A stretch of 64,000 nt of DNA from Bilabrum cf. latius (GCA_965178125.1 OZ237751.1:62001-126000), one strand, 5' to 3'. Positions 1-64,000 are shown, counted from the stretch's first letter. The notes: a model not told the origin generated them from the sequence alone. Made by a program: numbers and translations.

Positions 1-2
1 CT

Positions 3-2336
3 CCGGCTCCGAAAGGACCGGGCCTGACAGTGCTGCCTATGGATTAGCGCCTGGTCCCTTTCTTTGCAGCTTGGCTGCAAGATGAATACGATGGTGATAT
101 CGAGGCCCTAAATCGAGCGTGGCACGTTGACACCACGGAATCTCTGTCAAGGGCTTCGCGTGCAGCAGTAGAGATGCAAGCACATGGCCGACAGGCCATT
201 GACGTGGCCTCGATCGCCGGCGGGTACGGCCTTGCGAGCGCCGCCTCAGCCAGAGAATCCGACTAGCAGCCCAAGCAGACTGTGAGGAGCTCGCCGCTCC
301 GCAATTTCACCGATGCAGCCCTCAGTGTGGCTGTCCCCACCGGCGGTGCAGCGCCCGCCCCCGGACAGTGGGCCTTCGAGTACCTCGGGTCGAACTTCCA
401 CTTCTCCCCGTGGCAGCCGAGCGGATGGGACAGGGACTATCGTCGGTTCAGGGATGCCATGCGATTCCACGCGCAGCACAAGGCCGGTCTGGAGCTGGAC
501 ATGTGCAGGTACATGCGCGCGCACGAACCCCAGCAACCGGTGCGCGTGGGCGGCGAGACAATGCTGCTGCAGCCGCAGCCCCTCAACGGCTGGGACAGGG
601 CGCTCATGGCAGACGTGGCCCGCGAGTGCGGGGCCTACTACGACTCGCTGCACCTGCCGTGGCACTACGCGCTCACCAACACGGAGAGATCCGACGGGCA
701 GCACCATGGCTTCCACAGGTATGACCCCGACCAGAGCCTCTACTCCATGGCGCGGTACATTGCAGACGGGGGCAGGGACATGTGGCGGGGGGCCTTCGAG
801 AGCAGTGGGGGCCCTGCGCTGTACTCTGGCGCGCAGGACAGCGGCATCGACGGTGGCCAGATCTAGAGGATGTTCATGAACTATTTGAGCGCAGGCCTGC
901 GCGGGATCGGGGTGTGGTCTTGGAACGCGCGGTGGCAGGGGCAGGAGGCGGGTGGCTATGCACTCACCGATCTGCAGGGAAACGTGGGAGAGCGAGCAAT
1001 CGCGGCTGGGAACGTGTCTAAGGCGATCCAGCGGGAGAGGTTCTCTCTGTGGGAGGCAGAGGACGAGCCCGTTGTGGCGGTGGTGCACTCTTGGGAGGCA
1101 GAGGCAGCCAACTCGAGGATGGGGTAGGCGGGCGGGCCCGTGATCTCGTGCACGCTTGCAGGGTGCAGGGACAGGTGGGCGCAGGAGGCCTGGATGCACG
1201 TCAAGGCACGACTGGGCGTGGCGGCAGCTCTCACTGCCGCCGGTGTGCCCTGGCAGTGGGTCAGTGACGATGATGTAGGGCAGTGGGGTGCCGACGGGCT
1301 GCTGCAGCGCGGATTTAGGTCGGTGGTGCTGCCGGGGCTGGTGAGTGCCAACTCGACGAGCCTCCTCCCGGTGCTGCTGGGCTTCGTGGCCAAAGGCGGC
1401 ACGGTGGTTGCAGACGCGCCCCTCGGGATGCTAGAGGCCCCCGGCAGCGAGTTGGTGGACCATTTCCGGGCCTCGAGCGGTAGCAGCAAGGACCCTGCTT
1501 GGGCAGATCTGTTCGGGGCCGGCGTGTCAAACTGGCAGTCCTCATCCAACGGGTATGAGAGGATTGTCTCAGAGCTGCCCGGTCGGCTGGGGCGTCCCCA
1601 CCATGCTTCGGACTCGGGCGGTCTCTTGGTCCAGGGTACCACGGCGGATCTGCTGGTGGACGAATCTGCCCCCGGCGGTGGGGCCACGCTCGTCGTGGAG
1701 CCGGGGCATGGGCAGCCGAACGCTCGCCCCTGGGCCAGCGCCGCGGTGTGGGACAGGCCGCAAGGGGGAGGCCGCACCGTGCTGCTTGGCTTCGAGGCAG
1801 GGCGACTGGCCTTTGCCGAGCCTGCGCCTGCCTCGAGCGGGCTGTGGCCGGGCGAAGTCGAGGGCGGGCCCACGCATCCCGTGCCGCCCATGAGCGGACT
1901 GGGGCCATGGAGTCGATTCCTGGCGGAGTGCTCGACCCGCAACTACACTCTCTTGCCAGGAGCAGGGGCAGAGGCAGGGGCGATTGGCAGCACTCCTGCG
2001 CTGGGGGCCTGGCGAGTCACTGCTACAAGCGGTAACGGCGGCGGTGGCTAGTCTGCTGCAGGCGCGTTCGGGCCGGGCCAGCCGATGGTGCAGGTGCCTG
2101 GCCTCAAGGTTTTCCGCCGGAGCGCCCCCGGCCGGGGTGTGGACTACTTCTTCTTCCTCAACTCGAAGAGGGCAGATGTGGCGGCTGACCTGCTCGTGGG
2201 TGGAAACGTGTATCGGGGCGTGATTGATGCGCTCTCACACGATGTGGTGCACTGCTCTTTGGACGGACAGCTCAACAGGTGCTCGGTAAAAGTGCCGGCC
2301 CACGGTGCCAGGTGGCTCATTGGGCAGCTGATTTGA
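3..2336 (+). CDS. GH42-like beta-galactosidase / glycoside hydrolase, 5'-partial, 5 in-frame TAG
   Basis: One frame joins ORFs 282-866, 870-1127, 1140-2051 and 2085-2336 through TAGs at 45, 264, 864, 1125 and 2049, ending TGA 2334-2336. FAAWLQDEYDGDIEALNRAW resembles the GH42 F..WL..KY.....LN.AW motif; W.WNAR..G.EAG and a trimerisation-like segment (LLGFVAKGGTVVAD) follow. Confidence 0.75.
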
Positions 2337-2483
2337 AAGGTGCTGCCGTGCATCAAGTATTGGCCCTGCCGGTGTGCGTCGACAGACCTGATAGGGTCTA
2401 TGAAGCATAATAGTATTATGTCATTTTCTGAGCGCACATCTTCTACCTCCACATTGGGCTGTTGTGCAGTTGCAGTGACGCAC

Positions 2484-2641: not shown

Positions 2642-5600
2642 TCACCATCCATACAGACTTGCTCGTGGCGCCATCCGCCTTACCAATTTCGTCTGCAGTG
2701 CCTCGTTGACGTCATTCTACCTGTTCCAAAGCTTCCTTTCTCCGTCCCTCAACCTAACGGTTCCTCGGATCGCTCTTAGCCCAGTCCTGCACCATATCTC
2801 CTCCATCTACTTTCGCACGCCTCTCATCTTCCGCTCATCCGGTCGTCCTCTAGGTCTCCCCCAATTCGTCCATCTCTCTAGCCCAGTTACAAGAGTTGGC
2901 CATGCTGACAAGGATGTTCCTCGCCATCTCAGCATCCGACACCGCGTCGGGTACCTACTCCATGCGTTCTCCATTGCGTCCAGGAATCCACTCAGTTCCT
3001 TCCTTTGCACTTCCTCCTTGATCCTGTGCACTACCTACCTCACCCTTGGAATTGCTGCTCCCTTGGATGACTCAATCGGCTCCGACTCCCAGGGTTTCTC
3101 TGTCCATGGGGATCGTCCATCCACCTCCTTCACCAGCAACTTCGTCGTCTGCTCCGTCGTGCCCTGGCCCGATTGCCATCGCTGAACCAACCTCCTCACC
3201 TGACGCTGACCTTCTGGTGTAAGCACCGTCGGCCGTGGCAATATCATGCACCGAGCCTTAAGTGCCAATCTCCCAAGGTTCCCCCGGTTCTGTACCCCCG
3301 CGAGCTTTGGGATAGCCCCTGGTCCGAACACTCCCAACTAGGACCCGTCCATCCACTCTCGTACCATAGCATAGGCAACTGCATCGTGTTTCTGCGCCCT
3401 GGGGATCGCCCTATTCCCTCGTAGTGTAGCGTACATGAGGTCCATGTACAGCTTCTTCGTACCCGAGTGACCCGACAGAGCCTTTTGTGCGATCCTAGTC
3501 ATTTCAGCCTTCGCCAGTTGCCGTATAGCGTCCTTGCGGACCACTTCCGCCGTTGCTCCTCTAGCAAGAACCTCCTCGTCCCTGACCGTCCATCGTCTCA
3601 GACACTCCCCCGCTGCATCGAGGGGTCCAGTCCCAGCCCCGCCATCTCGAACTTTGTTGAATACTGCTCTCTTGAAAGTGGCCCAGGGTGACGTGTTCCT
3701 AACCGGTTCTCGTACCACCCATACCGCCCGAAGCAGTTGCAGGTGAACCCTTGATGCGGCGTCCGCCGGTAGTACCTCAATGTCACATACCGACGTGCCT
3801 GGTTTCCTAGGTCCGATCACTTTCGGGTAGGCTTCCATCTTCCCAAACACTAGCGCTGACCTGACCTCCTGTAACAATCTATCCATTGTTTCGAGTGCCT
3901 CAGCGTTCATGGTTATCCCGTCTCTCTCGATGGTCCTCTACCCCAAGACCTCCTCCCACCCGGTCACTGGCACTGCAGCCTCTGATCCATACAGCATCCC
4001 CATCACCGTCGTCTGATAGAGTAGCTGTGCATGAAGCTTAATTCCCCAGTTGCACTCCACAGCTGCCCTGGTGACAAGTTGACCATTCATTCGGGCCATG
4101 CTGACCCTACAGTGCACGTGTGGCATCATGTCCACCGCATGATACTTCTCCTTCGGTGAGCTCCCCTATATCACCCTCACTGATATTCGCAACCCGAGGT
4201 ACTTGTACGCCCGTACGACTGGAACATCTCTGCTCTCTGCAGCTCCCGCCTGTTGCAACTCTACCGCATCCACCGAATGCCCCTTGCGTTCAAATTCTTC
4301 TGCCGCTCGCCCGAACGGCATAAACGCTGTCTTCTCCCCGATTCCGTTCACTCCTGTTTTTTTGATCCCTAGAGTCAACCCAGCCGCCCGCGCCAACTTC
4401 GACATTTTCGCGTACGCCCTCAAGGCTAATCTCCTGTTGCGGACCAGTATCACGTAGTCGTCTGCGTATGCTGCGTGCATAACGTAAATGGACTTATTCC
4501 GGTACCTGAGTCTGACTGGGGCTGCCCCTTCAGCCAGGAGTTCGCGCCTCATGGTCTCCAAAATGGGTGCTATGTACACCAAAAACAGGGTGGGTGATAA
4601 GATTTCCCCCTGAGGTGCCCCGCCTTCTTTCACCACCGGGTTTGACAGTTCCCCTGTTCCAGGGTCACGTACTCTGACTCGCTGTCGTACCCTGTTCATC
4701 AAGTACCGGATCGATTGAGTTCCCCATCCCTGTTCCATCATCGTTTTCTCCAATATCTCCCACGAGCATGAGTCATACGCTTGTTTGAAATCGAAGAAAC
4801 ACATGACTCCCCCAGCTCTGCCCTACTTGCTGATGCCTTGCATCATCGTCATGAAGGCTTGCTGGCAGTTACGTTCCCGTCGGAATCCCATCTGGTCTCT
4901 CCCAAAGAGACCGTGTCGTTCGCAGTACCGCCTGATCTTGGTGTCCAGCATCGTACTGATCACCTTGCTGATCGTGGAGGTCCAACAGACCGGCCTAAAT
5001 CCCGACACCTCCATTGATCGCCGACCAGCCCCTGCCTTGTCCAGCGGCCGCATCATCGCCTCCTCTAGCTACGCCGGTTGGCATCCAGTGCACAGTATTG
5101 CATTCGATAGAGATCGTAAAACCTCGAGCAGACTGCCTTTGATGTCTGCGTGCGGATCGGCTGCACCCTCTCGCCGGATGAGCAACATGTCTTTCAGTTG
5201 ATTCGAAGTGACCCCATCCAGACCCGTGGCTTTGTTGCGTCGTAAAGCTTTAATGGCATCTTCGACCTCCAGGTTGCCGTGACAGTACAGGTTCAGAACC
5301 CTGTTCGCTGTCGGCATATTCGGCCTAACTCTGTCGAAGTAGATATCAGTTGCTGTCCTACGCTTCTTTGCCATCTCCCTAAGCCCTTCTGCGTGTCGAT
5401 TGACGATCTCCGCTGTCGTTGATGTCATCGATCCGTTCGCCATCAGGATTGGCAGTAAGCCTTTTTCTCGCGTCGTTGTCACCCCCTCCCTGTTCCTCGC
5501 CGCCTGCTTGATCCTGTCCGTGATGACTCGCCATCTTGCCGCGGATGTCGTGGATTGAGCGTCAGTCCACAGTCGATCTCCATCGAGCCTCATGCCCTGC

Positions 5601-6157
5601 TCTGTCACTGCCATCCTGGTCTGCTACTGCAGCTCCGCTAGCTCGAGCAGTTGTTTGCAATGCGCAGGACGTTTTAACCAGTTCGGGTCGGCCAGTTTGT
5701 CCTCCCACTCGTGGCTGGTTATCCTGGTGCGCGCCAATGCAACTTGCCTGATCAGCGTTCTAGAAATGCGCCGAAAGCATGCCACCAGTTTTCCCAACCG
5801 TCGGGCCCCTCTTTCCCGATTCTCTGAGTGTTGTGCTCCAGATCTAGCCTCTTGGGTGACTCCCACTAGTATCTCGTCCCACTGTCTCCACAATCCGTGT
5901 TCAGGCCGCTTCTGCCTGCGCTGTCTTAGCCTCGGTTTGGGTAGCGATCCGGTACTAATGTCATCCGCTTCCCTGAGAATGTCCACCAGCCTTGCCAGTA
6001 CCTTTGAAAGGTCCACAGTCGCTCTTTGCCTCAGACTCTGGGGGAGCCCCCCTCTGGTACCTGATGTACCAGGCTCGAATTTCCTGCCCGTTCGTTCCCA
6101 GCTCTGCAGGAGTGCAGCCGCGGTGTCCAACTCGACTTGGTGATGTTCCTGTATCCA
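2642..6157 (-). CDS. Non-LTR reverse transcriptase ORF (~1170 codons, 9 in-frame TAG)
   Basis: Same-frame ORFs 5624-6130, 5069-5614, 4823-5056, 4166-4804, 3938-4135, 3338-3910, 3035-3337 and 2807-3031 are separated only by TAG; the frame ends TGA at 2642-2644. Motifs: NKATGLDGV, FRPVCWTSTISKV, QMGFRRER, FFDFKQAYDS, GAPQGEILSPTLF, AYADD, IKKT, YKYLG, MLYGSE. The frame opens after a TGA at 6158-6160 with no early ATG. Confidence 0.9.
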
Positions 6158-6279: not shown

Positions 6280-9200
6280 ATGATTGGAGCTGCATGGATT
6301 TGTTTATGTTTACTATCGCTGACTCCAGCTGTGAGCTTTCATTTCATCTTGCCATAGTATCAAATAGCCTTCATTTCACCTTGCAACACGAAGTGATCGA
6401 CAGATAGTCTTTTTCATATTCTGCAGGTGGTCAACTTCCTAGTATGGGCGACTTTGAATTTAATCACACTTTGGGCGTCGCACTATACAAGCGGTGCAGT
6501 TCGTTGTAGTTTCTCGGGATGCAGACTCCAACATGAACTCGTGCAGGACGTTTTGCGGGTGTGCTTCGGATTGAAGGCATCTGAAGCCCCGAGTCCAGGG
6601 CTTGCGCTATTTGTTGAGCGCAGTCGTATCTTCATTGATGCTGACAGGCTACCGAGTCGAACACGACCAACGCAATTGGAAATCCCTGGGGTTCGAACGG
6701 TTCGAGTAGTGGTTCAGGTTTTGCAGTCCATTCTGGCGGTACTTGGCGGTGCACGCGTCGTCTTTAAACAGATTGATGTCGAAGTTTGCCATGCCATTCG
6801 AGTCGGTCCGGATCAGACATCCCAGGATCTGCTTGTTTCTGTTCAAGAGGCGCACCTCCAAGCCACCGCAGTGCTGTCTCCGTCTGGAGACAACTCACGA
6901 ACCGATGGCAAAGCCTCTATGGACGGGCTACAGGCAAACTTGTCCATACGCAATATTAAAGCAACACTGCGTGGTGTGCACCCGCTGGCTGACAGGACGG
7001 CTCAAACCACCGGCCCTGTGGCGTGGGCAGTTCTACGCACCAAGTCGGCAGGCTTGGAAGCGCGCGCGTCGTGGCCTGCGGCTGAAAGTGTGGGGAGCAT
7101 GGAAGCCAATCTGGGCACCTCAGCGACATTGTCCCACCTCGCTGGGCCGCCAGGTGCCCCTCTGCCGCTGCCGGATCGCGTGAGCCTTGCACTCGACCTT
7201 GCTGACGTCTGCGCCCGGGTTGAAGAATGTGATATTGGGAGCCGGACTAGTCCAGCAGGAGGCGCTGGCCTGCACGCCAGCTTTGGCCGCGTATCGGCCA
7301 GGCTGACCACCAGCCGAGTAGCCCGAGGGCACCAGGACACCTCTCGCAACGAGCTCCAGTGGACCTGGGATGCGAGAGTTGCATTCTTTGGCTCTTTGAT
7401 CCGTAACGACACCACCAGGAGCAGCAGGCAAGGTGGGAGTAGCCTGTAGGACGGATTGCGCGTGTCTTATTTTGGTGCCTCGTGTGCTCCGCGGGGAGCC
7501 AGTCGGCTTGGCCTGGCTGCCGAGCGCCCCCTGGGCCTTTGCATGCTGGCGAAAATTGCTGGCGTGCAATCCAGCCGAAGAGCAATAGATCCAATCGTGA
7601 TGTTTTGCCAAGCAATTATTGGATCCTTGTTCAGCCTTGGGCCGGGCCTCCAGCCTAACTAGCCCCCACAGCAGGCCTCGCTACGTGGACCTCTAGATCC
7701 TATACTGCCAATCGAGATAACCATCGGCGGTTTCGTTCAGAGGGTCATGGCAGCTGGTGCGCTTCACCAGGTACTGGGTTTCACCCCAGCATGTGAGAAT
7801 CATATTTCGATCGCGGCAGACTCTTTGAGTCTCGGCTGGCATGGGGCGGTGGGCAGCGAGCTGAGGGACTGCCTGATCCGACTGCCTCACTTGGACATTA
7901 GCGGAGTTGTCACTAAACAATCGAACGCTACAAGAACAAACTCTGGGTCGATGCATCCGCCTTGTATGCTTGGCCTGGAACTGTCAGTTCTGGTACACCA
8001 GCTGCGCATTGACACGCGATCGGAGGATTGTCCGGGCTTGTTAAGGCCAAGTCTCCTCCTCTACGGGATCCGCATTAAGCAAAGCATATGTTTGGAGCTC
8101 GATGGCGCATCCAGGCTGTTTGCTTCGCTCCAACCGGCGTGGAGACCTGCGGCACACTGTGCCAGCACCATGCTCTGCATAGACGGGATGGACGCTAGAC
8201 CCTCTCCAGAGCTGCTCCAGCTGGTCGGAATGTGCATATACGATTACATCCAGGTTATCTTTGGTCCCAACCGTGGAACAAATGTATCAAGCCGCAGCAG
8301 TCAAGCAGGTACGGCAGCATGCATTGGGACAGTGCGTGACTAGCTGTACGCAAACCCCGTCACGCTGTATCCCCCGAGCCCTGCAATGAGCACAGACTTG
8401 CTACCTGCAGAGAGCGGTGGCTTTGTTGGGAAACTGCTGAGCTCTACCATTGAGGTCCCTCCTGTCTTTAGCGGCCGCCGTGATGCTGTCGTGGCTGCGC
8501 GGTTGCTTGCTCTCGAGGACTGGTCCTGCAGCTCGGCGCGATCTACCATGAACATGTGCGGCGGGCATGCGGTGTGCTCCTAGGCCGACAGGGCGCCTAC
8601 CATTCGCTTCATCATTCGCGATTGCAGAGTTAGTGCTGCCTCCTGCCTGTCAGACACGCTTAGGAGGCCCATTTACACTCGCGAGATCGAGAGAGACCCA
8701 GCCTTTGACCAGCTGCACGTGTGGAGGGCGCGACTCAGAGCACCACAGCCCGACTAGGCTGAGGTCCGAGCCCACCACAGGGCAGCGATCAGACAAGTGT
8801 ATCTTGATCTAGCATTCAATTAGCAATCAAGCCATTGGTACGGGCACGGCGGTGACGCGGGGTACTTTCGGGCACCTGAACCCTCCTTCGCTCTATCGAT
8901 CCAGCACGCAACGCTTCGGGCCTGCTGTACAGGCGTACGCACTACCATGCGGTCGATCAATTCTCGCGCGATTTCGCCGGATAGACTTGGCTCAGCACAG
9001 CATTTTATAGCAAGAACTGCTGATGTCCAGCCACTCGTCAGCCCCACCCCGTACCTCAGCGTCAGAAAGGTAGACGTTTGCGAGGAGAACGCCGTGCCGA
9101 TCTCGACCCGACGGGCTCAGCATGGCGGCCAAGGCGGCCAGCGGCTTGTTATGGTAAGCACATTGGACGCGCAGTGCACCTGCACCTCTGCTGAGATGGT

Positions 9201-52694: not shown

Positions 52695-55037
52695 TTACCC
52701 AGGAGCAGAATCCAGCACTGAGGCTTGTCTCGTGGTGCCCGCAGCACCTGGCGTGCCACTTGCTCGTCCTACAACAGCACTCGGTCGCTCATGCTGCTCC
52801 TGTGGCCCCACAATGGCGCTCCACAGACCGCCCAGCAGACCACCTGCATCATCCCCCACCAAACCTCCCGTCCCCGCCCCTGTCCCCTCCCCTGCCGCCC
52901 TAGCCCGCAGCTCCATGTCCCTCTTCGCAAGCAGGCCCAGGGGTCGACCTCCACCGGTGGACGATGCAAAGGCCCCACCAGGGGACGGCCTCACCGCACC
53001 GCGGAGTCCCTGCACCACACCTCGGCTCGCGCGCACCGGTGAACCGCCCACTCCCACCCTGTCCTCTCTGCCCTCGAGCGCTCGCCTCTCGCCATCCCCG
53101 AATCCAAGGATATCCGCGATCGCGGCCTCCATCTGGGCCAGCAGCCCCGACGATCCCCCCAGTCCGCTCGCGTCGAGCGGACCAGAGGACCCGCCAAGCG
53201 CTGCGCCCATGCCTGCGCCCAACTCTGTTTGTTCTCTCATTGCGCGGCGCCGCTGCAGCATGTAGCGCAGGACCAGGTTCCTCAAATAGGCCATCCTCGC
53301 TTCATTCGCGCCCTCCTGTGCATCTGCACCGCTTTCATTCGCAGATCCTTGCCCAGACACGCCACCATTTGAGGCTACCGCCACACTGTCACCGGCCCGC
53401 GCACCCCTGCCAGCCGCGCCCCTCGCAGCCGCCTCGGAGGCAGCGAGCATCGCGCGCGCCGCCCCGCTGGCACCTCCACCCGCCCCCAGCCCAGCCCCTG
53501 TGCCAGCCCCAGTGCCGCCCCCGTCCCGACTGGAAGCAGGTGCCGGCAGACTCAGTGGGATCCTCTGCACGGGCACTGCCGATGCCGCCCCTTGCATCCT
53601 CCTGAGTCTGCTGGCTTCCTGCTCGGCCTCCTCCAGCCTGTCCCGGGCCGCCCGCAGCTGTCTTCGCATGTCCGCCGCCGCCTCCTCCGCCTCGTCCGAG
53701 ATGCGTTCCTTCTGCTTGAGCAGCTCCATGGCCCGCCGGCGATAGGCCGCGAAGTCCCTCCGCAGCTTCTCCATCTCAACGTCCCTCCCCCCTGCACCCG
53801 CAGATACAGATCCATCTCCGCTGCCCCCTGCCTCGCCTGGGACATCGTACCTCAAACCAGCCCGACTCCCGCTCTCCCGTCCCTGCCTATCACCTGCCTC
53901 TGTCTGCGTTAGGGGAGAGCCCCCCAGGTCTCCCGCCAGCGCGCCCCTCAGCGCCGCCGATGCCGCCTCCTGCGCCTGCACACGACCGGCCTCGGCTGCC
54001 CGCGCCGCCGCCGCAGCCTCCCCCGCCGAGTCCCGCAGCGATGCGGACTCGTCCTCTGCCGCAGCTAGCGCCCGCTTGGCCTCTGCCAACTCGGCCGCGG
54101 CCCGCCTGGCCCCCACCTCGGCCTGCACCCTGGCCCGCCCCTCGGCCGCACGTGACTCGGCCAGCGCATGCCGCAGCTCCTCAAGCTCCTCCCGAGCCTG
54201 AGCCAGGGCTAGCGCGCTCCCAGATGCATTGCCGCCGCCATGTCTCTCGCCAGTAGAGGTCCCGGATGCTCTGTGCTCCGCTGCCCGGGCCTTCCCCCCT
54301 TCGATCTGGGACTAGAGTGAGAGGACTGGCACTGCGGCCCAGTCGGCCTGCAGCAGCTGCTGGCGGGTCGAGGCAGCTGCGGCGGCTGCGACCGCGTCCT
54401 CGTCCGTCTCCCCGTCGGGCTCGTCGTCCTCTTCACCGACCAACTGCAGCGCACTGCCGCGCACCCACACCTGTGTGCGTTCTGCGGCAGAGATCCCGGC
54501 GGCCCCAGCCCCCTTGGCTCCGTCGGGCGCGCTTGGCGTCATCTCCACCAGGACCCAAGCCTGCATTGATGGAGGCTACCCAGACTGCGAAACGCTAGCT
54601 GCATTATTTTCTTCAGAATGCAGCACACAAAGAGGTTGCAGAGCTTCTGCGCCAGTGCCGGCCGCTGCTCGAGACACTACGTCAGAAAGCAGCGACTATG
54701 CCAACTACGCCCCTTGTGCAGCGCTATCCGAGCTAATGGTGCCATCTGCCGGTAACATAGCATCAAATGCAGCCTTATTCAACGATTGGCCGCCGTCAAT
54801 GTCGAGGAGACCGCCGTCGCTTCCGGATCCCTCAATCGGGCGCCGAGCTTCAAGTTGGGTGCGAACAGATCCCAGCAAGCGTTGCATTCTTGCTTTGTAG
54901 TTAGAAACTACCTTTTTCTGCGATTCGAGCATCTGTTTCAGCCGCTTTGCCAATCGAATCGCTCGCTCATACCGGTCATCCTTGCCTGTGGCTGTGCCGG
55001 CCGCCATACCGGGCTCCACCCCCCGAACAGAGGACAT
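52695..55037 (-). CDS. GRIP-domain coiled-coil golgin (780 aa, 4 in-frame TAG)
   Basis: ATG 55037; TAG 54705, 54696, 54576 and 54312; TAA 52695. Long coiled coil plus a split GRIP-like motif MAYLRNLVLRYM...MEAAIADILGFGDGER. Confidence 0.75.
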
Positions 55038-55184
55038 AGCTATCAGCTGTCAATATTCTTTTGGTGGTATGAATGGGCACATGTCGCTGCAGGAGGCCAC
55101 ATGCGGCAGCTGATGGTGTGTGACGAAGACTAGTAGGCAAACAATATTGCTTCTTAACTAGAGAGTTCTGCAGCATCTGCTTGG

Positions 55185-56672
55185 ATGGAGGATGGAACTG
55201 ACTGCTATAAAGTACTAGAGATCTCGGCATCGGCTTCAACCGACGAGATAAAGACAGCGTATCGTGCACTTGGTGAGGCCTGACTGGATTCCCCGTTCGG
55301 CTTGCTGTCCGAGAGTGCTAGTCACCCGGTTGACTGTTTAAGTTCACATCACTCACAACGTATTGCAGTCAAAAAGTACCACCCAGATGTAGACGCTTCG
55401 GCAGGTGCACTCAAGAAATTCCGGCTCGTCAAGGACGCGAGCGAGGTCCTTCTGGATGACAAGCTGAGGCGGAAGCACGACATCAAGCTCGGGTACGCCG
55501 GCCCGGGAGTTGGACTGGGACAAGACCGTGGCGACTACGACCCAATGAGAGCCAGGGCTGCTCGGCAATCCCGCGTCTCGGAGGAAGAGTTCGCCCGGAG
55601 GGTGAAGAACGTCTCGCAGGGCTTCTGGGGAGGCCGCCGTGGCGGGCAGAGCCACACCTCGTGGCAGGACTTCGCCGGGTCTCATGGAATCGGCGCCCAG
55701 GACGCCAGCGCGCAGGGCAGAACCGGCAAGTTCCGCAGCAAGGTGCGCGGCGCCTACAGGCCGCACGCCTCTGCTGGGCTAGGTCTGGACGAGCGCGAGT
55801 GGCAGCGGATGCACTTCGGTGATGGGCTGCTGGAGGACCATGTGCGCGCAAAGTACGGGGAGGAAGGGGTGCAGAGGCTGCGCGCGCAGCAAGCGAGGGA
55901 GCGGGCACAGGGTGCGAGTTCGGGATCGGGATCGGGATTGGGTGCGGGTGCAGGAGCCGATGGATGGATCCACGACGACGATGGGTGGGGCGCGTTCGTG
56001 GGAGCACAGGTGAGGGAACAGCAGCAGCAGCGAACGGGTGCGGGTGCGGGTGCGAGTGCGGGGGGCATGGGAGCTGGGGGCATCGGCGCTGCGGGGGCGC
56101 AGCAGCACAGGCAGCGGCAGCGGGCGGGGGCTGAGTGGGGGCAGCGGGCCGCGGGAGCACGGGCAGATTGGGCGGGCGGTGGGGACTTCGGGCCGGACGG
56201 GCACGTGAGGCAGAGCGGTCGGTCTCGATTGGAGATGGAGATGGAGATGGAGGGGGCGGAGAGAGCGGAGGGGGGGCGCGGTGTGGGCGCTGGTGTGGGC
56301 AGCGGGCCTCAATCGGCGGCCGGCTGGGGGTCTGCTGGGTCGACTGGGAGTCCTTGGCGGCAAGGAGAGAGGGTTGATTTCGGAGCATCGCCGGGAGCAG
56401 GAGCAGGAGCAGGGGCAAGGGCAGGTTGGATGGACCCCCGTGGGCCTTCCTCCATGGCAGGTCACGCTCGCAGCTCGAGTTTCTACAGGGCACAGCTGGA
56501 CCGCTTGCGAACCGAGAGATCGAGGGGTTTTTCGCTGAGGGGCTGGCGGGGTGTGGTGCAGGTGGGCGTGTGGGTGGGAGCCGGGGTGCTGGCGTATCAG
56601 GGGGGCATGATGGTGCTGTCCACAATTGCTGGGGATGATAGGAGAGGGGGTGGTACAGGGATTTCAAGATGA
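55185..56672 (+). CDS. DnaJ (J-domain) protein with Gly-rich region and C-terminal TM (exons 55185-55272 and 55369-56672)
   Basis: DCYKVLEISASASTDEIKTAYRAL|VKKYHPD...FRLVKDASEVLLDDKLRRKHD; no internal TAG; TGA 56670-56672. Confidence 0.85.
55273..55368 (+). other. Spliceosomal intron (96 bp, phase 1)
   Basis: GTGAGG...TATTGCAG; splicing restores the J-domain YRALVKKYHPD. Confidence 0.85.
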
Positions 56673-56819: not shown

Positions 56820-59800
56820 TTAAACTCCCTACGTATTCTGCAGGAGCACCCGGCCCACGGGGGCCTCCTGCGGCGTGGCCCCGACCAAGAACGACACCCC
56901 TTCATCGATACATTCGGTGAGCGCCAGATTAATCACTGCGTCCGCATACTCCCAATCCATTGGCCGCTCAACGATATATTTTCCGTGTGAATGTGCACTT
57001 GGCGCAGGTGCACCGGCTACACCAAGATCGCCTGCGGACAGCCCCTTCGAACGGGGAGCGCTGTCACGCGGCCAGGAGCATGGGCTGCAGCACATCCGAT
57101 GGGACACAGGCGGTTGGAGACATTGCTGGACGAACCATCCGGCCCTGGCAGCCATCTGGTCGCTTCTAGCAGCGTTGGCCAGGCGAAGCACCGACTCAGC
57201 CCATCCCGAGTGCGAGCAAAAAGCCTACGGCCAGGCTTTCGACTGCTACTGCTTGTGCATGCTCTGCATTCCGAGATCCGACAAACTTGGTCCCTCCTTT
57301 GTATGGATCAAACCCTGTATCGTGTCTCTGCTCGCCGACATCCGCAATCCAGGCACCGGTTCACCGTGGAGCTCTGATATGCTGCCCCCACTAGCTAGCG
57401 CACGCTCTCGCTCTTGTACCCCCTCCGCAACCGCCGCAAGTGCCGCGAGAGGGCCAGCAAAGTGTGCAAGCCCGCCGCCTGCTTTCACTTCGTTTCTCAT
57501 CTTGAGCATCTCGATAGCCAGCACCATTCCAGCCTGCTTCGGCTGCATCACCATCTGAGCTGTAGAGCTGCTCGTACGCACAAGGGTAGCCCTCTTGCTT
57601 GCGAACGGCTCGTTCTACAGCGCTAAGCCCAGCTGTACCGACGTGGTCCATGCCAGCGCAGCAAGCAGCAAACACGCAGGCAAGCACCCAGCAGCCACTG
57701 ACACTGCCATCATAGGCAGAGCGCCGTCGCAATTCACGTGTGCGATGCACTCATGCAGCCCGTGCTCGAAGGCCCAGAGGCCGACGATCCCCGCACCTGT
57801 GTACAGTCCTCCGAGCACCATGAGCACCACCTCGATCTGCGCGTTGCAGATGCCGCCGAGCCATAACCTCCTAGCCCCTAGAAACCCAGTGGAACCACCC
57901 ACAGCTAGCAGGTGCGCCAGAAACAGCCCCTCCAGCCCGTGCTTGACGGCGAGACCAGGCCACCAGGGCACCCAGAAGTCCTCCTCAGCGCGCGCTTGCT
58001 GCCACGCCTCTCGCTCTAGCCGCAGCAGCAAGCCCTCTCTTTGCTGCAGCTCCTGCGCCATGAGCGAGAGCACAGTGATGGTCACAATCAGGCCAATCTC
58101 ACCGGCCATCACCACGTGCACCGCCCCGTCCATCCAGCGAGTGCCCAGGTAGAGCAGCCGCACGCCAGTCACAAGCACGTACGGCACCCCGATGGGCACG
58201 ATCAAGTCCTGCACCGCCACCCCTGCCGCTGCGGGAGTGCGCCCCGCGATGGGCTCCCAGGCACCTTCTAGCCTGCGCATGGCGGTCCACAGCGCGCTAG
58301 CTAGTAGCATGCTAGGCATCTCCAGCACCGAGGACACCGCCAGGTGCATGGAACTGTGCTGCAAGGGCTGTCCCCCCGTGGTGTCTCTAGAGGGGCACCA
58401 GTGCGGAGCAGAGCACGGGATGGCCCGCCCTGCACCGTCGAGCCCCCGGAGGAGGCTGCGGCTCGGCACCGCGGGCAGCGATGCGCGCCTCGAGGCCCGC
58501 AGCAGAGGCAGTGTGCAGCAGCCCACTAGCAGGGGCGCGCCCGCACCGATTGTTGCCAGCCCCGCTGCGATCCATAGCCACGAGATGGAGGTGCTGAACT
58601 GAGCCTCAAAGCGGCTGCGCACCCTTTCGAGCGTGCTGGCCGCTTCCCAGCTGGATCCGTCGATTTCCGGCTAGCTCTGCGTGCACTCGAGGCAGTGGCT
58701 GGCTCGAAGCGCCGATTTGGCTGCAAGCGTCATAATCGCAGAGGGCGCGTGCAGCCCACAGACCAGGTTTCGAACGGCGAAGGAGGACGCCAGCGGGGGC
58801 ACACGAGAGGCTGACGGGTCATCCCTCGTTACCATCAATACCACATCATGCGACGAGGCATTCCACGGCGGCAGGGCATCAACTTCCCCTTGACTGAGGC
58901 CGCGCGAGCCTGCTAGCATCTTGGCCTCGTCCCATCCGTCTTGCATGCCAAGCTGTGCCACAGGGCCGCAGTGCGCCCTGTCCACCGCCTCTGTCAGACC
59001 CGTGCACAGCACATCTGCGGCCCTGGCTGATGCAAGCACTGCCAGGAGAACGCTCGCCACCGGAAGCACCGCCCCGCAACAGAACCCTGCCAGGCTGAGT
59101 CCCCGCAGCAGGCACCTCCGCCGAGGCTTCACCAGCTCGTCCTCTCTCGATGCCAGGGCGCTGGATCTCTTCCACCTGCCCGCTCTTCCGCGGTGCTCGA
59201 GCAGCTTGCGGTACAGCGCGGTGGACGTGCTCGGGACCTGCGCAGCGGGTGCAGCCTCTCTAGCACCGGCATCGAAATCGCCGCACGTTCGGGCGGGCGC
59301 CGACAGCATCAGCTCCACGGAGGCTTGCTGGGCCCTGCGACTCGCCCGCGAGGACGGCTCGATGCATTGCTGCTCTTGGTGACGTGGCACTGAGGGCAGC
59401 ACGGTAGCTGGGCCCGGCGTGCGGCAGCTGCCGATGCCATCTGCCCCGACCGTTGCATCGCTCAATGAGCCGTGACAACATGACTCAGCACCCATACTTC
59501 CTCGTCCGAGTGGCTGGCTTCTACTGATTTGATCGCCGTGATGTGAGTCACTCGACCGAGACGGCACATGCAATGGAGCAAATAGCTACCGCGGTTGGAG
59601 CTAGGTTTCGACAGTGTCTCCCGCCGGCCAATTCCCATCCGAAGCAGACGCGTGGCTCGCGTCGGACCGATGCAGGTGCCCCACTGACCCTCGCATCTGG
59701 CGCCTCACCCAGATAGCTGCACTCGTCAGCGCTGCCTGCCGAGGCATCACTGACGCCTCACCATCCTGCGCTATACTCTACTAGCAGCTGAGTCGCCCCC

Positions 59801-60566
59801 ACAGGCAGCTCCATCCACCCCACTGGCATACACCACCGGCAGCATCACGGTGTCCCTTGCCTCTTCCCCTCAGCCTCTGGCTGGAGCCGCCGCCACTGGC
59901 CCACACAGCCAGTGCCCATCGGCCGGCGAGTGCGGCCTCCGATTGCAGCGCAGCTTGCCCGGTGGGCCTGCCCCAGCGTGCCAGCACGGCATGAGCCATG
60001 GACATCCTGCGGGCGACACACGCGGGGCACAAGCCGCGATGAGTCGACATCTGCCTGCTCTGCAGAGTTGCTGGACCGCCTTGTTCGCAACGGCACGGGA
60101 TCGTGTCGATGGAAAGGGCCTATATGGACTTCAGGGCACGACCTAATGCTAGAGATGCCATTGAACGAGCAATTATTCTCTGCGACCTGGGAGACTCCAG
60201 CTGCAGCAAGAAGCCCGCCTGAATGGTCTTTCGTACCGGGCCACGATTTTGAGATACAGCCACGACGTCAACAATTGCCTGCAGCGCAGACAACGATCGG
60301 GCCGCAAATTTTGAGTCGCTGTCAAAGCATTGGTCCTTCGTTCGCCAAAAGGTGTCCCTAGTACACACGAAACGACTGAATGGATCGCTTTCGGCGATGA
60401 ACCGTCTCAAATGCCTGCAAGAGGCAGCAACGGCTCTACAGTCCGAGCCAGTCAGAAAGGAACATACCCGATAATTCAGATTTAGCGCTGCGTTTTGACG
60501 GAGCGAAGTCTGCTAGGCCCAAATCTGTTGATTGCAACCGATCGAATCGACATTCCGAACTTTCAT
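56820..60566 (-). CDS. Multi-pass membrane protein with N-terminal F-box-like motif (~1250 aa, 11 in-frame TAG)
   Basis: ATG 60566; LNYRVCSFLTGSDCRAVASCRHLRR is F-box-like; same-frame ORFs 60120-60410, 59781-60050, 58671-59573, 57615-58622, 57246-57581 and 56829-57191 are joined via TAG; TAA 56820-56822; several TM segments at 57615-59100. Confidence 0.7.
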
Positions 60567-60904
60567 TGATCTAAAAATCAAAGGCAGCAAGTAGACAGGA
60601 GGTCCACACACTCGGGTGTGTATGACAAAAGCAACTGAGTTAAGCAACCGTCATAATTTCGCCTCTAGGACCGTGCTCGCAGCGATGCAATAATCGTTGG
60701 GATGAACGTTCGTTTGGTAGCAGCGAACCTTTTCCGTTTCGGGTCGATCCGTCGACGACCATCATCATCACTTCTACCGGGCTAAAGCAGGCGTCAGCGC
60801 AGTTTCCCTGTGTCTAGTAGAGTATTGCTACAGGGTTGATCGCAAACAAACGGACGCGGACGGTGTCCTTCGCAAGGTAGCAGCTACCGCGTGCTGAGCT
60901 TGCA

Positions 60905-63900
60905 ATGACGGGGCCTGGAGTGCTGGTGATGCTCCTAGGCATCATGATATCCCTGTCTCCGGTAGAATCCATTAAAATAACTTCAACGTTCAAATCCGTG
61001 TGTCGCGTTGATGAATATCGCGGCGTTGAGGGCAAGAATATCAGCCACGCATGCGGCAGAGCCAGGAAACCTCCTCGGCGAATTCATCCTCCGCAACGTC
61101 CCAGCTCCGATCCGGACAGTGTAAGCCGTGCAGTTGTAGTCGAGAGAATATAGCAGCATCATGTTATGTCGAGGTCTGCGGGAACTTGCAGACAGCAATC
61201 GGCCATGCGCCCAGCAGCGGCTGAGCCTCCGGCGCAGCCGCCTACCTTTCGGAAGGAATCGCGCCGACCTTTGGATCAGGAAACCAATCAAAATGCAAGG
61301 ATGCTATAGGCCTCTGGGGGCGGGGTGGAGACCCACCGAGTGACTTGGGTAGGCGGCTACTACTGGGTGCTGGCTCTGCAGCCACGGGTCGTGGTGCCTC
61401 CCGGAGCCTCGAATCCGGGCGACCCAGCGCTGGGAGGGCCCCTAAAGCCGCCCGGTCCTCGATCCTACGATGAACTGCAAGCGATGACGGAGGCGCCCCG
61501 CGCGCTGTACCAAGAGACGCACGCCTCGGCGTGCGCGAGGGTCGGCCTCGTCCCCTCCAGCGAGCACGTCTCGTTGCGGCTGCCCCCCGACGCTGGACCC
61601 GGCGGGGGCATAGTGCAGCAGCAGGCCGTGGAGGACCCGAGCGATGCCTCCCAGCGCGCGGCGTGGGGTGTGCAGTACGCACAGGCCATCGCCCAGGGCC
61701 TGGGCCTGCCCCTGTCCGGCTCCCCGCTGGCGGGCTGCTGCACCCCGGCCATGTACTGCGGAGCACCCCCTGGCCCGGCCCGCAGCCAGGTGGGGCCCGC
61801 TGGGGACGCAGGGGCCGAGTGTGCGGTGCACGGTCTGGGTGGGACCGTGTATTCCAATTCCGGATGGTTCCAGGACTCGAGCCGCCGCCCCGTGTACACG
61901 TGTCTCGAGCGGAACGCCACCACGGGGGGCGGCATCGAGCCGTGGAGTGCCGCAGGAGTCGGCTCCGGATCGTTGGCCTACCACCAGGCGGTCGGTGGCA
62001 ACGGCTCTATGCCCGCTCCCCGGCTGCTGTCTGTGTCCTCAGACGGGGGCAGCGTGGAGGAGCTGAGGGAGTTCGACCGGGTGTCGCTGGAGGGCTGGGG
62101 GCTGGGGGAGGACCCGGGGGACATCGACGTGAGGCTAGGGGGGGCGCAGTGCACCTCCCCGCAGGTGTGCCACCGCACCTGCGAGCCGTGTTCCGGCCCG
62201 GGAGACTGCGACTCGAACAGGGCTTGCGTCACCTTCGCCGGCTCGGACCAGCAGCCCTCGAGGAGCGTGTGCCTGCCGCTGTGCCAGGTGCAGCCCATCG
62301 CAACGTCGGAGCTGTGTGCCTGCGGGCAGCAGTGCCGAACGTTCGCCACGAGCGCCCAGGGTTCCTTCGTGTCTCTTTGCGTGAATGGCGACATGGACCA
62401 GCAGGGCATCTGCCCCGCTGGTAGGTCCTACGCCCCCTCCTAGGGCGACAGCGCCATCGACTGCTGGGCCCCGGGGGGGCAGTGTGGGCTCGAGGGGGTT
62501 CTCCCAGCCATCGTGTCCAGCTAGGGACTGCCCTCCTCGGGGGTGATCAGGGCCGCTGACCCGCCCACTGCGGCGGGGGAGGAGCTGGGGGGCTCCCAGA
62601 GCACCATGGGGATGGTGGATGGGCTCGAGTCCACTGCTGTCAGGTATGACCTTGACATGCAGGGGAGGGGCTTCACCTGCCAGGAGGACGAGGACTGCTT
62701 GCCGGGGGCGGACGTGTGCAATGCAGTGCGGTGCATCCAGGGGTGCTGCGTGTCGTCTTCCAGCGGCCGGTGCGACACGGAGGAGCCAGCCGATCGAGCT
62801 GTCCGTCTGCACGGGGCCCTCGTGCCTGTCCCCCTGCCGCGACGGGCTGCTGCCCTGCTGCCCATGCCCGGCCCGCTGCCGCTTGGCTCGGCCGGCACGG
62901 GCGACACGAGGCTGGCTCCTGCCTCTGACGTGGACGACTCGCCCATGTCGCTGTTCCCTGGCACTGGAAGTGGTGGCTCGGCAGGCCAGGACCAAGCTGC
63001 GGTGGCAGGGGCCGGCCAGGGCGCCAGGCGCGCGCTGCGGGGTCTCTCGAACTCCTCGGACGACGACGATGCCAGCGGGGGTGCCGGGGACCATGGAAAT
63101 GGCACCACCGGTGTGCCGGCCGGGTTCGACCCTCCCTTTTTCGCCCGTCGGGTAGACGCCCTGTGGGTGGGATCCAACGGGTTCATGGGCAGGAACGGCA
63201 CGCATCCGTGCGGCGGACACTTTGGAGGTTTCGACTGCGGTCCGTTGAACCGGTACAGGGACTCGATTGCCCCTCTGCTGACCGACCTAAACCCCTCTGC
63301 CAGCGAGAGCGCCGCTCTGTGGGCCCGTGGCCTGCCTGACAACCGGAACCAGACCGATGTGGATGCAATTTCGCCCGAGAAGGTGGCGGCTTCGGGGGCG
63401 GCATGCGTGCGCTGGAAGGGGGTCCCGCTCTACGGGGGCCCTTTGGAAGACACGTGGAGCTTCACCGCGTGCCTGTTCGGGGACGGGGGTCTCCGCTGGA
63501 GGTATGAGGAGCTGCCTGTGGGGCGGGTGCCGGCGGTGACCCAGTTCCTGTCGGGGGTCAGGGACGAGATCGAGCAGGCGGACGACGCGCAGGCCGCGGC
63601 CACAGCGCTGCTCAGGCACTTCAGGCCCTCGGGCGGGTCGGCTGGCTCGCTGGGAGGCGCCGAGGACGGCTCCGACTTCGCGGTGCTGGGTACATCGGAC
63701 GTGCTGCTGGGCGCCGATGCCATTCAGGAGGCCTCCACCGTGGGGCTATGCCAGGCGGGGGCCAGCGCCTGCTTGTCGTCTAGGTGCGGCGAGGCAGGGC
63801 AAGAGATTCGCATGCAGTGGGCGGGCATCGGGTGCGGGGCTGGGCTGGGGACGGGGGCGGCCGGCGGGGCTGGGGTCAACGGCTCTGACGAGGCCGGGGT

Positions 63901-64000
63901 GCTGTGTCAGGTGGGTGCTGCCGTGTCACCAGCGAGGTGGGTGAAGCGACCCTCATGGGAGCGGGTCACCACCGTGATATCCGGCGAGACCGGCCCGGTG
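60905..64000 (+). CDS. Secreted/surface protein with IPT/TIG-like, Cys-rich and NIDO/PLXDC-like domains; 3'-partial; at least 4 in-frame TAG
   Basis: Signal peptide MTGPGVLVMLLGIMISLSPVES; TAG 61151, 61307, 62441 and 62522; IPT-like VSLEGWGLGEDPGDIDVRLGGAQC; NIDO-like FDPPFFARRVDALWVGSNGF, IAPLLTDLNPS, FTACLFGDGGLRWRY. Confidence 0.7.

What the first reader, a model, noticed from the sequence alone, without database searches (positions are those of the whole stretch)
1..64000. Non-canonical nuclear genetic code: TAG is a sense codon while TAA and TGA remain stops
Seen: 15 of 16 genes, on both strands, are broken only by in-frame TAG (about 125 by manual count, e.g. 28 in a 10.4 kb BLTP2 exon and 19 in POLQ) and never by TAA or TGA. 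Conserved domains run straight across the TAGs, and all 15 visible gene ends are TGA (12) or TAA (3). Known: eukaryotes usually reassign UAA and UAG together; UAG-only reassignment is reported in few lineages, such as the fornicate Iotanema spirale (Gln), an uncultured rhizarian (Leu) and some phyllopharyngean ciliates. Inference: this GC-rich, intron-poor protist does not resemble those lineages and may be an independent reassignment, implying a tRNA with CUA anticodon and an eRF1 that tells UAG from UAA.
Basis: partly seen in the sequence, partly recalled or inferred. Interest (0 to 1): 0.97.

Follow-up and report, generated by a model that had tools for sequence, protein, structure and literature searches.

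The report
UAG read as glutamine, nuclear genes
This GC-rich stretch of a eukaryote's nuclear genome reads the stop codon TAG as the amino acid glutamine while keeping TAA and TGA as stops, a rare genetic-code variant known from only a few other organisms.

Summary
In 16 stop-to-stop frames (19,734 codons) there are 131 in-frame TAG and no TAA or TGA. Of the 15 visible frame ends, 12 are TGA and 3 are TAA. The counts of 28 TAG in the 3463-codon frame and 19 in POLQ are exact.

TAG most likely encodes glutamine. Fragments from 87-94% identical environmental relatives read through 11 window TAG sites: 9 are Q and 2 are E. Six of 6 usable fragment ends stop exactly at a window TAG. An empirical likelihood favours Gln over the next residue by about 10^12.

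A relative with 45% identity also has in-frame TAG, one opposite a window Gln.

RNA-like contigs from two other studies keep 37 of 44 TAGs unchanged and splice out one GT..AG intron.

TAA is not sense: 0 seen against about 38 expected.

No tRNA(CUA) or eRF1 could be examined, and the lineage is unresolved. This is the Iotanema/Hartmannula-type code (UAG=Gln) in an unplaced GC-rich organism that mostly terminates on TGA. Independent origin is plausible but untested.

The parts
3..2336 (+). g1: 777-codon frame, open at the window start; 5 in-frame TAG; ends TGA. No Pfam family.
2642..6157 (-). g2: retroelement ORF with a reverse transcriptase domain; 9 in-frame TAG; ends TGA.
   Evidence: RVT_1 E 2.1e-21; counts
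6397..16788 (+). g3: 3463-codon frame with 28 in-frame TAG; ends TGA. Weakly BLTP2/Hobbit-like at the C-terminus. A relative reads Q at the TAGs starting at nt 11821, 12484, 12523, 14029, 14416, 15502 and 15760. The relative's ORF fragments end at the TAGs starting at nt 9550, 12604, 14581 and 16285.
   Evidence: Pfam Hobbit E 0.3 only
16945..25584 (+). g4: DNA polymerase theta-like gene (helicase plus family A polymerase). 2879 codons, 19 in-frame TAG, ends TGA. Relatives read Q at nt 22957 and E at nt 19804. Relatives' fragments end at the TAGs starting at nt 24202 and 25180.
20464..20565 (+). 102-nt GT..AG intron inside g4. It is skipped by one contig of run X5 and contains no in-frame stop.
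   Evidence: (joint 20463->20566)
25706..26311 (-). g5: 201-codon ORF with 3 in-frame TAG; ends TGA. Covered end to end by RNA-like contigs of two studies.
26433..29621 (+). g6: GH78 alpha-L-rhamnosidase with a signal-peptide-like start. 7 in-frame TAG; ends TAA. A relative reads Q at nt 26895 and E at nt 26928.
29717..32290 (+). g7: 857-codon frame, 4 in-frame TAG, ends TGA. No Pfam family.
32470..34338 (+). g8: 622-codon frame, 4 in-frame TAG, ends TGA.
34483..43425 (-). g9: 2980-codon low-complexity frame, 16 in-frame TAG, ends TGA.
43855..45780 (-). g10: 641-codon frame with Pro/Thr/Ser-rich repeats. 4 in-frame TAG, ends TGA.
47184..49865 (+). g11: 893-codon frame, 9 in-frame TAG, ends TGA.
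50069..51658 (-). g12: membrane protein with a weak claudin/PMP22-like match. 1 in-frame TAG, ends TGA.
   Evidence: (Claudin_2 E 3.7e-06, below the cut-off)
52695..55049 (-). g13: coiled-coil protein with a weak GRIP match. 4 in-frame TAG, ends TAA.
   Evidence: (GRIP E 0.0054, below the cut-off)
55185..56672 (+). g14: J-domain protein, the only gene without an in-frame TAG; ends TGA. The J domain is split by a predicted 96-nt intron at 55273-55368 (GTGAGG...GCAG).
   Evidence: the intron is predicted from sequence only
56820..60650 (-). g15: 1276-codon membrane-protein-like frame, 11 in-frame TAG, ends TAA.
60644..64000 (+). g16: 1119-codon Cys-rich frame running off the window end; 7 in-frame TAG.

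Best explanation
The organism's nuclear genes use a code in which UAG is an ordinary glutamine codon, about 13% of Gln codons here. UAA and UGA remain the only terminators, with UGA the commoner.

Shown here:
- UAG lies in frame throughout real, conserved and apparently transcribed genes.
- It is kept in RNA-like contigs.
- It alternates with Gln codons between close relatives at a rate typical of a silent change.
- UAA and UGA never occur in frame.

Inferred from what is known of other stop-to-Gln codes (tRNA-Gln(CUA) in Tetrahymena and hexamitins, and the eRF1 GTS-motif change in Iotanema, as described in PMC5304391 and PMC9161772):
- UAG is decoded by a tRNA-Gln with anticodon CUA, which cannot pair with UAA.
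- eRF1 has lost efficient recognition of UAG while still recognising UAA and UGA.

The trait is shared by related environmental organisms, so it belongs to a clade and not to one strain.
For: 1. Frame statistics. 131 TAG, 0 TAA and 0 TGA in 19,734 in-frame codons of 16 frames. In-frame TAG density (6.6 per 1000) is close to the off-frame density (7.7). 57 TAA and 304 TGA would be expected at off-frame density. The chance of a 3463-codon frame free of TAA and TGA at that density is about 2e-28 (my arithmetic).

2. Only TAG read-through opens the genes; TAA or TGA read-through does not.

3. Homology runs across TAGs.
- POLQ helicase and polymerase domains share one frame.
- Four GH78 domains share one frame.
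- A 45%-identical homologue (L001) aligns over 489 columns on both sides of TAGs in both sequences.

4. Amino acid identity.
- Fragments of 87-94% identical relatives read through 11 window TAG sites: Q at 9 and E at 2. One search counted 8 Q and 2 E automatically. The ninth Q is residue 2 of P0159 opposite the TAG at codon 2005, read by eye.
- 6 of 6 usable fragment ends fall exactly one residue before a window TAG, so the relative shares those TAGs.
- In total 11 of 17 TAG sites differ, while only 8% of ordinary residues differ. That is the behaviour of a silent site.
- Empirical likelihood from the same 2713 aligned residues: log10L is -3.5 for Gln, -15.4 for Lys and -18.0 for Glu.
- One L001 TAG aligns with a window Gln.
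- A profile of 138 distant rhamnosidases over 7 TAG columns ranks Q first, but weakly: Q 4.28, E 3.89, H 3.82 bits.

5. TAA is not Gln. With CAA/CAG = 0.288, 37.8 in-frame TAA would be expected and 0 are seen (Poisson P = 4e-17). Three genes end in TAA. A 90%-identical relative's rhamnosidase ORF ends two codons from the window's TAA.

6. TAG near C-termini is still sense. The pooled 182 codons after the last TAG have GC1/2/3 of 0.63/0.48/0.64. All coding codons give 0.65/0.55/0.68. Sequence after the real stops gives 0.48/0.52/0.49.

7. Transcripts.
- Contigs of runs X5, X6 and X7 (two other studies) show gene-wise depth differences of 1.6 to 101.
- Two runs share the contig start at 26436.
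- One contig lacks a 102-nt GT..AG intron.
- Their listed pieces cover 37 of the 44 TAGs in 12400-32390. The only base difference reported anywhere is 29496 T>C.
Against: - No tRNA gene is in the window (Rfam found 0 matches). No genome was available. The decoding tRNA and eRF1 are therefore unseen.
- The runs taken as RNA are labelled by the tool only as 'RNA?', and X5 as 'probably DNA'. Their RNA nature is my inference from depth, contig ends and the spliced contig.
- 2 of 11 read-through sites are Glu in relatives. Several distant-homologue columns favour acidic residues: E or D at rhamnosidase codons 50 and 184, and E in human POLQ opposite codon 522. Distant homology alone does not separate Gln from Glu.
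- 7 of 14 genes have their last TAG within 39 codons of the stop, against about 3 expected (my estimate). This leaves some room for occasional termination at TAG.
- There is no peptide evidence.
- Stop-to-stop frames include some untranslated 5' sequence, so a few of the 131 TAGs may lie outside the true CDS.
Confidence: 0.88

Rival explanations
1. The organism uses the common UAR-to-Gln code (as in ulvophycean green algae, many ciliates, hexamitids and oxymonads). In-frame TAA is merely rare because of the GC bias, and the three TAA 'ends' are sense codons followed by a TGA.
For: The genome is GC-rich. In ulvophytes TAG is used more than TAA for Gln (PMC2984419, Figure 2 legend passage). Reading past the rhamnosidase TAA reaches a TGA after about 33 codons (my reading of the sequence printed).
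Against: There are 0 in-frame TAA among 19,734 codons, although CAA makes up 22% of CAR codons. 37.8 would be expected (P = 4e-17). Reading TAA as sense opens no longer frames. 3 of 15 genes end at TAA, and sequence after those stops loses the coding GC pattern (pooled with TGA ends). A close relative's ORF ends within two codons of the rhamnosidase TAA.
Confidence: 0.04
2. UAG is ambiguous: usually read as Gln, but still a terminator in some contexts, as in context-dependent codes.
For: Last-TAG-to-stop distances are short in 7 of 14 genes. In g15 a TAG lies 3 codons before the TAA.
Against: Tails after the last TAG look like coding sequence. The conserved PolA motif region and the rhamnosidase C-terminus follow their last TAGs. 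No gene end needs TAG as a stop. In the known UAG-only lineages no dual use was found (PMC11687900 Discussion; PMC5304391 passages).
Confidence: 0.05
3. UAG encodes another residue, glutamate being the only serious candidate.
For: 2 of 11 sites are E in close relatives. Acidic residues dominate some distant-homologue columns. UAG=Glu exists in one ciliate (PMC11687900 Discussion).
Against: 9 of 11 sites are Q. In the same alignments only 1 of 136 window Glu residues is Q in the relative. The likelihood is about 10^14 lower than for Gln. Ser and Leu are 0 of 11.
Confidence: 0.02
4. The TAGs are not translated: the genes are pseudogenes, were hit by C-to-T mutation of CAG (RIP-like), or carry assembly or base-calling errors.
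For: Every TAG is one transition away from CAG.
Against: Such processes would also create TAA from CAA, and TGA or TAA from TGG; none is seen in frame. The same TAGs stand in contigs from four runs of three studies with no differences. Six TAG positions are shared with a 92%-identical relative. A 45%-identical relative also has in-frame TAG.
Confidence: 0.01

Closest known systems
Iotanema spirale (Fornicata): UAG=Gln with UAA and UGA as stops (PMC5304391; passages read)
   Same: The same three assignments. UAG is frequent in frame (204 in 126 genes there; 131 in 16 frames here), and no gene needs UAG as its stop.
   Different: Iotanema terminates mostly on UAA (104 UAA against 15 UGA). Here TGA dominates (12 against 3) and the DNA is 62% G+C. 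Its nearest relative, Euthynema, keeps the standard code (PMC9161772 passages), whereas here relatives down to 45% identity share in-frame TAG. Whether the window's organism is a fornicate was not testable.
Ciliates Hartmannula sinica, Trochilia petrani and Protocruzia tuzeti: UAG=Gln, UAA kept as stop (PMC11687900; abstract, Introduction and Discussion read)
   Same: A UAG-only reassignment to Gln, predicted to be decoded by a tRNA with a CUA anticodon that cannot read UAA.
   Different: Those genomes use UAA in 87-98% of stops and have 27-54% G+C (the paper's Discussion). The window is 62% G+C, uses mostly TGA, and has long multi-kilobase genes on a contig of at least 36 kb, unlike gene-sized ciliate chromosomes (the last point is recalled, not tested).
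Ulvophycean green algae (Dasycladales, Cladophorales, Trentepohliales, Blastophysa): TAR=Gln with TGA as stop (PMC2984419 and PMC8271138; passages read)
   Same: Stop-to-Gln reassignment, TAG the commoner new codon, and C-to-T as the single step from CAG.
   Different: There TAA is also Gln and TGA is the only stop. Here TAA is absent in frame and ends 3 of 15 genes. No TGTAA poly(A) signal enrichment was found (2 of 15 genes); that this motif marks chlorophytes is recalled.
Other UAG-only codes: rhizarian exLh and TARA phyllopharyngeans (Leu), Scotinosphaera (Ser), ciliate PL0344 (UAG=Glu, UAA=Lys)
   Same: UAG and UAA have different meanings.
   Different: The amino acid differs: 0 of 11 sites are Leu or Ser here and 2 of 11 are Glu.
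Phage 'code 15' (crAss-like and Lak phages; search listing only)
   Same: TAG=Gln with TAA and TGA as stops.
   Different: That is a viral, late-gene recoding in bacteria. The window is eukaryotic nuclear DNA with spliceosomal introns, POLQ and a retroelement.

Membership tests
UAG=Gln / UAA,UGA=stop nuclear code (Iotanema type; the assignments of NCBI table 15) | In-frame UAG inside conserved coding sequence, with homology continuing on both sides | tested here: met
UAG=Gln / UAA,UGA=stop nuclear code (Iotanema type; the assignments of NCBI table 15) | UAG positions correspond to glutamine in homologues | tested here: met
   9 of 11 sites are Q in 87-94% identical relatives. Likelihood log10L is -3.5 for Gln against -15.4 for the next residue. 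The distant-homologue profile ranks Q first but only weakly.
UAG=Gln / UAA,UGA=stop nuclear code (Iotanema type; the assignments of NCBI table 15) | UAA and UGA absent in frame and used as terminators | tested here: met
   0 TAA and 0 TGA in 19,734 codons; ends are TGA 12 and TAA 3 of 15
UAG=Gln / UAA,UGA=stop nuclear code (Iotanema type; the assignments of NCBI table 15) | UAG never serves as a terminator | tested here: inconclusive
   Only 15 gene ends are visible. Tails after the last TAG look like coding sequence, but the last TAGs lie rather close to the stops.
UAG=Gln / UAA,UGA=stop nuclear code (Iotanema type; the assignments of NCBI table 15) | UAG present in the mature mRNA (not edited, not spliced out) | tested here: met
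   37 of 44 TAGs lie in listed contig pieces of runs X5-X7 with no base change. Caveat: the RNA nature of these runs is inferred.
UAG=Gln / UAA,UGA=stop nuclear code (Iotanema type; the assignments of NCBI table 15) | A tRNA-Gln with anticodon CUA | not testable with these tools
   No tRNA in the window; no genome held
UAG=Gln / UAA,UGA=stop nuclear code (Iotanema type; the assignments of NCBI table 15) | eRF1 N-domain change that spares UAG (for example the GTS motif) | not testable with these tools
   The eRF1 gene is not in the window
UAR=Gln code (NCBI table 6; ulvophytes, many ciliates, hexamitids) | TAA also used in frame for Gln; TGA is the sole terminator | tested here: not met
   0 in-frame TAA against 37.8 expected; 3 of 15 ends are TAA
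UAG=Leu or UAG=Ser codes (rhizarian exLh, TARA phyllopharyngeans; Scotinosphaera) | UAG aligned with Leu or Ser in homologues | tested here: not met
   0 of 11 sites in close relatives. Neither L nor S is among the eight highest-scoring residues in the profile test.
Context-dependent codes without dedicated stops (Condylostoma, karyorelicts, Blastocrithidia) | All three, or UAR plus UGA, stop codons occur in frame as sense | tested here: not met
   Only TAG occurs in frame
   Pfam Hobbit E 0.3, 8.5 bits against a cut-off of 24.5. The match is collinear and C-terminal only. There was no hit at E below 0.001.

The most novel reading that the evidence does not exclude
This is an independent origin of the UAG-only (Gln) code in a eukaryotic lineage outside ciliates and fornicates. 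The clade would be GC-rich, have compact genomes, terminate mostly on TGA, and already be visible in several environmental data sets at 45-94% protein identity. It would be the first such case where UGA, not UAA, is the main stop. It would also offer a lineage with both genome and transcriptome data in which to study how eRF1 tells UAG from UAA.
Probability: 0.55. Interest if true: 0.8.

Novelty: new member of a known kind. Interest (0 to 1): 0.72.

Why it matters
Codes that separate UAG from UAA are rare in nuclear genomes. The Discussion of PMC11687900 lists only a few ciliate lineages, Iotanema, one rhizarian and Scotinosphaera. These cases bear on why the two codons usually change together, through wobble by tRNA(UUA) and joint recognition by eRF1.

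A further case would add an independent test of codon-capture versus ambiguous-intermediate models, especially one in GC-rich DNA that terminates mainly on UGA and has relatives at several distances. It would also add a natural eRF1 that discriminates UAG from UAA.

There is a practical consequence too. Any annotation of this genome or its relatives under the standard code breaks nearly every gene. The public protein collections already hold the relatives only as fragments that end at TAG.

Tried and rejected
- Whole genome: none is held.
- tRNA and RNA families: ARAGORN found 0 genes and Rfam found 0 matches in the window.
- First POLQ homologue search at 'near' lengths found nothing.
- Taxonomic placement failed.
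I did not send pieces of POLQ.
  - The TAG-free DnaJ gene gave only generic J-domain clusters with scores at or below 0.89.
  - There is no TGTAA or AATAAA enrichment after stops: 2 of 15 and 0 of 15 genes within 500 nt.
  - No rRNA or other marker gene is in the window.
- Run search: no holder on record as RNA is listed. The RNA reading of X5-X7 is my inference.
- RIP-like mutation, base-calling artefacts and pseudogenes were considered and rejected (see the rival explanations).
- Pyrrolysine- or selenocysteine-type recoding was rejected because relatives show Gln.
- Metagenome loci L002 and L003 (30-32% identity) were not analysed further.
- Literature: 8 searches found no report of a GC-rich non-ciliate, non-fornicate eukaryote with UAG=Gln only. 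Subscription journals and supplementary files were not visible. Because the taxon is unknown, a published description cannot be excluded.

Full report
**What is there**

The window is 62.5% G+C. G+C is 55-71% in 4-kb steps. It is densely packed with long open frames on both strands, but only if TAG is read through.

Longest stop-to-stop frames:
- Standard code: 800 codons.
- TAG as sense: 3463, 2980, 2879, 1276, 1171, 1119 and 1080.
- TAA as sense: still 800.
- TGA as sense: 1527.
- Twenty block shuffles under TAG-sense: never more than 1229.

I settled on 16 genes, g1 to g16 (see the parts list).

Pfam and the structure bank identify several of them:
- A reverse transcriptase (g2, E 2e-21).
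- A DNA polymerase theta with DEAD and Helicase_C domains N-terminally and DNA_pol_A C-terminally in one 2879-codon frame (g4). Its best solved relatives are human POLQ helicase domains, E 1.4e-20.
- A GH78 alpha-L-rhamnosidase with four domains (g6).
- A J-domain protein (g14).

Weak, sub-threshold matches suggest three more:
- Claudin/PMP22-like for g12.
- A GRIP domain for g13 (E 0.0054).
- A Hobbit/BLTP2 C-terminus for g3 (E 0.3).

**The observation**

Counts in the 16 frames:

| Measure | TAG | TAA | TGA |
|---|---|---|---|
| In frame (19,734 codons) | 131 | 0 | 0 |
| In-frame density per 1000 | 6.6 | 0 | 0 |
| Off-frame density per 1000 | 7.7 | 2.9 | 15.4 |
| Expected in frame at off-frame density | - | 57 | 304 |

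- 15 of 16 genes carry TAG.
- The 15 visible ends are TGA (12) and TAA (3).

**Which amino acid**

The public protein collections hold relatives of this organism only as fragments, because ORF callers stop at TAG.

For g3, four fragments come from one 13,245-bp contig and are 93-94% identical.
- They cover seven window TAGs, and all seven are Q.
- All four fragments end exactly one residue before a window TAG.

For g4, three fragments are 87-94% identical.
- They give one E (codon 954) and one Q (codon 2005). The Q is residue 2 of P0159, read by eye from the printout.
- Two fragments end exactly before window TAGs.
- The third runs into an intron and was left out of the count of ends.

For g6, one fragment at 91% identity gives one Q and one E.

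Totals: 17 TAG sites were examined. Six are shared as TAG. Eleven are read through, 9 as Q and 2 as E.

The 2713 aligned residues are 92% identical, yet 11 of 17 TAG sites differ. TAG-to-CAG exchange therefore behaves like a silent change.

I used the substitution frequencies of those same alignments as an empirical model:

| Hypothesis | log10 likelihood |
|---|---|
| TAG=Gln | -3.5 |
| TAG=Lys | -15.4 |
| TAG=His | -16.8 |
| TAG=Glu | -18.0 |

A more distant relative was fetched as DNA: L001, a 2313-bp metagenome contig with 56% G+C.
- It has a 478-codon frame from an ATG with a signal-peptide-like start to the contig end.
- The frame is 45% identical to g6 over 489 columns.
- It contains two in-frame TAGs. 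One lies opposite a window Gln; the other lies opposite Leu in a variable stretch.

Distant homologues are less decisive.
- I built a profile from 138 of the 150 rhamnosidases returned. I dropped those under 400 residues and the three close relatives.
- Over the seven TAG columns it ranks Q first (4.28 bits), barely ahead of E (3.89) and H (3.82).
- Human POLQ has E opposite g4 codon 522.

**TAA and TGA remain stops**

- CAA is 22% of CAR codons. If TAA were Gln in the same proportion, 37.8 in-frame TAA would be expected. None is seen (P = 4e-17).
- A 90%-identical relative's rhamnosidase ORF ends two codons from the window's TAA.
- The 182 pooled codons lying between a last TAG and a nearby stop keep the coding GC pattern (0.63/0.48/0.64). 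Equal stretches after the TGA or TAA lose it (0.48/0.52/0.49).
- So even C-terminal TAGs look translated. With only 15 gene ends, occasional termination at TAG cannot be excluded.

**Transcripts**

The run index found the stretch in seven runs of three studies. I laid four of them on 12400-32390.

- X1 covers it in one contig at flat depth. It may be the source of the window.
- X5, X6 and X7 are labelled only 'RNA?', and X5 'probably DNA'. They nevertheless behave like transcriptomes.
  - Depth differs by gene: 1.6-7 over POLQ, about 48 over g6 and g7, and about 100 over g5 in X5.
  - Contigs of two runs start at the same base, 26436.
  - Contigs of two runs span g5 at 25654-26300/26306.
  - One X5 contig joins 20463 to 20566, skipping 102 nt bounded by GT..AG.
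- The listed pieces of these runs cover 37 of the 44 TAGs in the stretch.
- The only base difference reported in any run is 29496 T>C.
- If these are RNA, as I infer, the TAGs are neither edited nor spliced out.

**Alternatives**

- RIP-like C-to-T mutation, pseudogenes or base-calling errors would also produce TAA and TGA. They would not reproduce across studies, nor at shared positions in relatives.
- The UAR=Gln code fails on the TAA counts.
- Leu and Ser are 0 of 11.
- Glu is disfavoured by about 10^14.

**Mechanism**

Shown: UAG is a sense codon that exchanges freely with Gln codons, and UAA and UGA terminate.

Inferred: a tRNA-Gln(CUA) reads UAG but not UAA, and eRF1 no longer recognises UAG efficiently. 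This follows the mechanism proposed for Iotanema and the phyllopharyngean ciliates (PMC5304391 passages; PMC11687900 Introduction and Discussion; PMC9161772 passages on the eRF1 GTS motif). Neither gene could be examined.

**Comparison with what is known**

The assignments equal those reported for:
- Iotanema spirale (PMC5304391).
- Hartmannula sinica, Trochilia petrani and Protocruzia tuzeti (PMC11687900).

Those organisms terminate overwhelmingly on UAA. Iotanema has 104 UAA against 15 UGA, and the phyllopharyngeans use UAA in 87-98% of stops. The phyllopharyngean genomes have 27-54% G+C. The window is 62% G+C and terminates mostly on TGA.

The ulvophyte code differs in using TAA as Gln (PMC2984419, PMC8271138). 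I could not place the organism, so independence from these lineages is plausible but untested.

Eight literature searches found no matching report. Supplements and subscription journals were not visible.

**Verdict**

- The finding is real and well supported.
- The amino acid is glutamine.
- The kind of code is already known, so I class this as a new member of a known kind.
- A fair chance remains that it marks a new, clade-wide and independent origin.

Noticed in passing
window 25654-26311 (-): A small gene (g5: 201 codons, 3 TAG, no Pfam match) lies between POLQ and the rhamnosidase. It has the highest contig depth of the laid stretch: about 100 in X5, against 48 and about 6 for its neighbours. 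RNA-like contigs of two studies span it with the same end at 25654.
   Followed up: partly
window 20464-20565 and 20630: A 102-nt GT..AG intron in POLQ (5' GTGAGG, 3' CGCAG) is skipped by one X5 contig. The same contig also lacks 2 nt at 20630, inside ATAT. If real, that would shift the POLQ frame in that strain; at depth 6.6 it may be an assembly error.
   Followed up: partly
window 55273-55368: A predicted 96-nt intron (GTGAGG...GCAG) splits the J domain of g14. Joining 55272 to 55369 restores ...AYRAL-VKKYHPDV. The intron carries an in-frame TGA. Both introns seen start with GTGAGG and have lengths that are multiples of three.
   Followed up: partly
window 51944-52611: A minisatellite of 33 nt x 20.2 copies with 98% matches lies just downstream of the g13 stop, between g12 and g13.
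   Followed up: no
window 45236-45694: A degenerate 36-nt repeat (12.4 copies) encodes the Ser/Pro/Thr-rich N-terminal part of g10 (SPSNSPTPSVTA units).
   Followed up: no
window 2642-6157 (-): The retroelement ORF with the reverse transcriptase carries 9 in-frame TAG and no other stop. The mobile element therefore follows the host's code.
   Followed up: no
window 34338-34483, 49865-50069, 56672-56820: Convergent gene pairs have only 145-204 nt between their stop codons. Intergenic DNA is about 50% G+C against about 65% in genes. No AATAAA or TGTAA signal stands out after the stops. The genome looks very compact.
   Followed up: partly
window 26433-26442: Contigs of X5 and X6 both begin at 26436. 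That is 3 nt inside the first ATG of the rhamnosidase frame and 6 nt before the second ATG at 26442. It suggests a very short 5' leader and a start at the second ATG.
   Followed up: no
L001 1-2313: The 45%-identical rhamnosidase relative comes from DNA of lower G+C (56%). The TAG-sense trait may therefore span organisms of differing base composition, unless L001 is a paralogue.
   Followed up: partly
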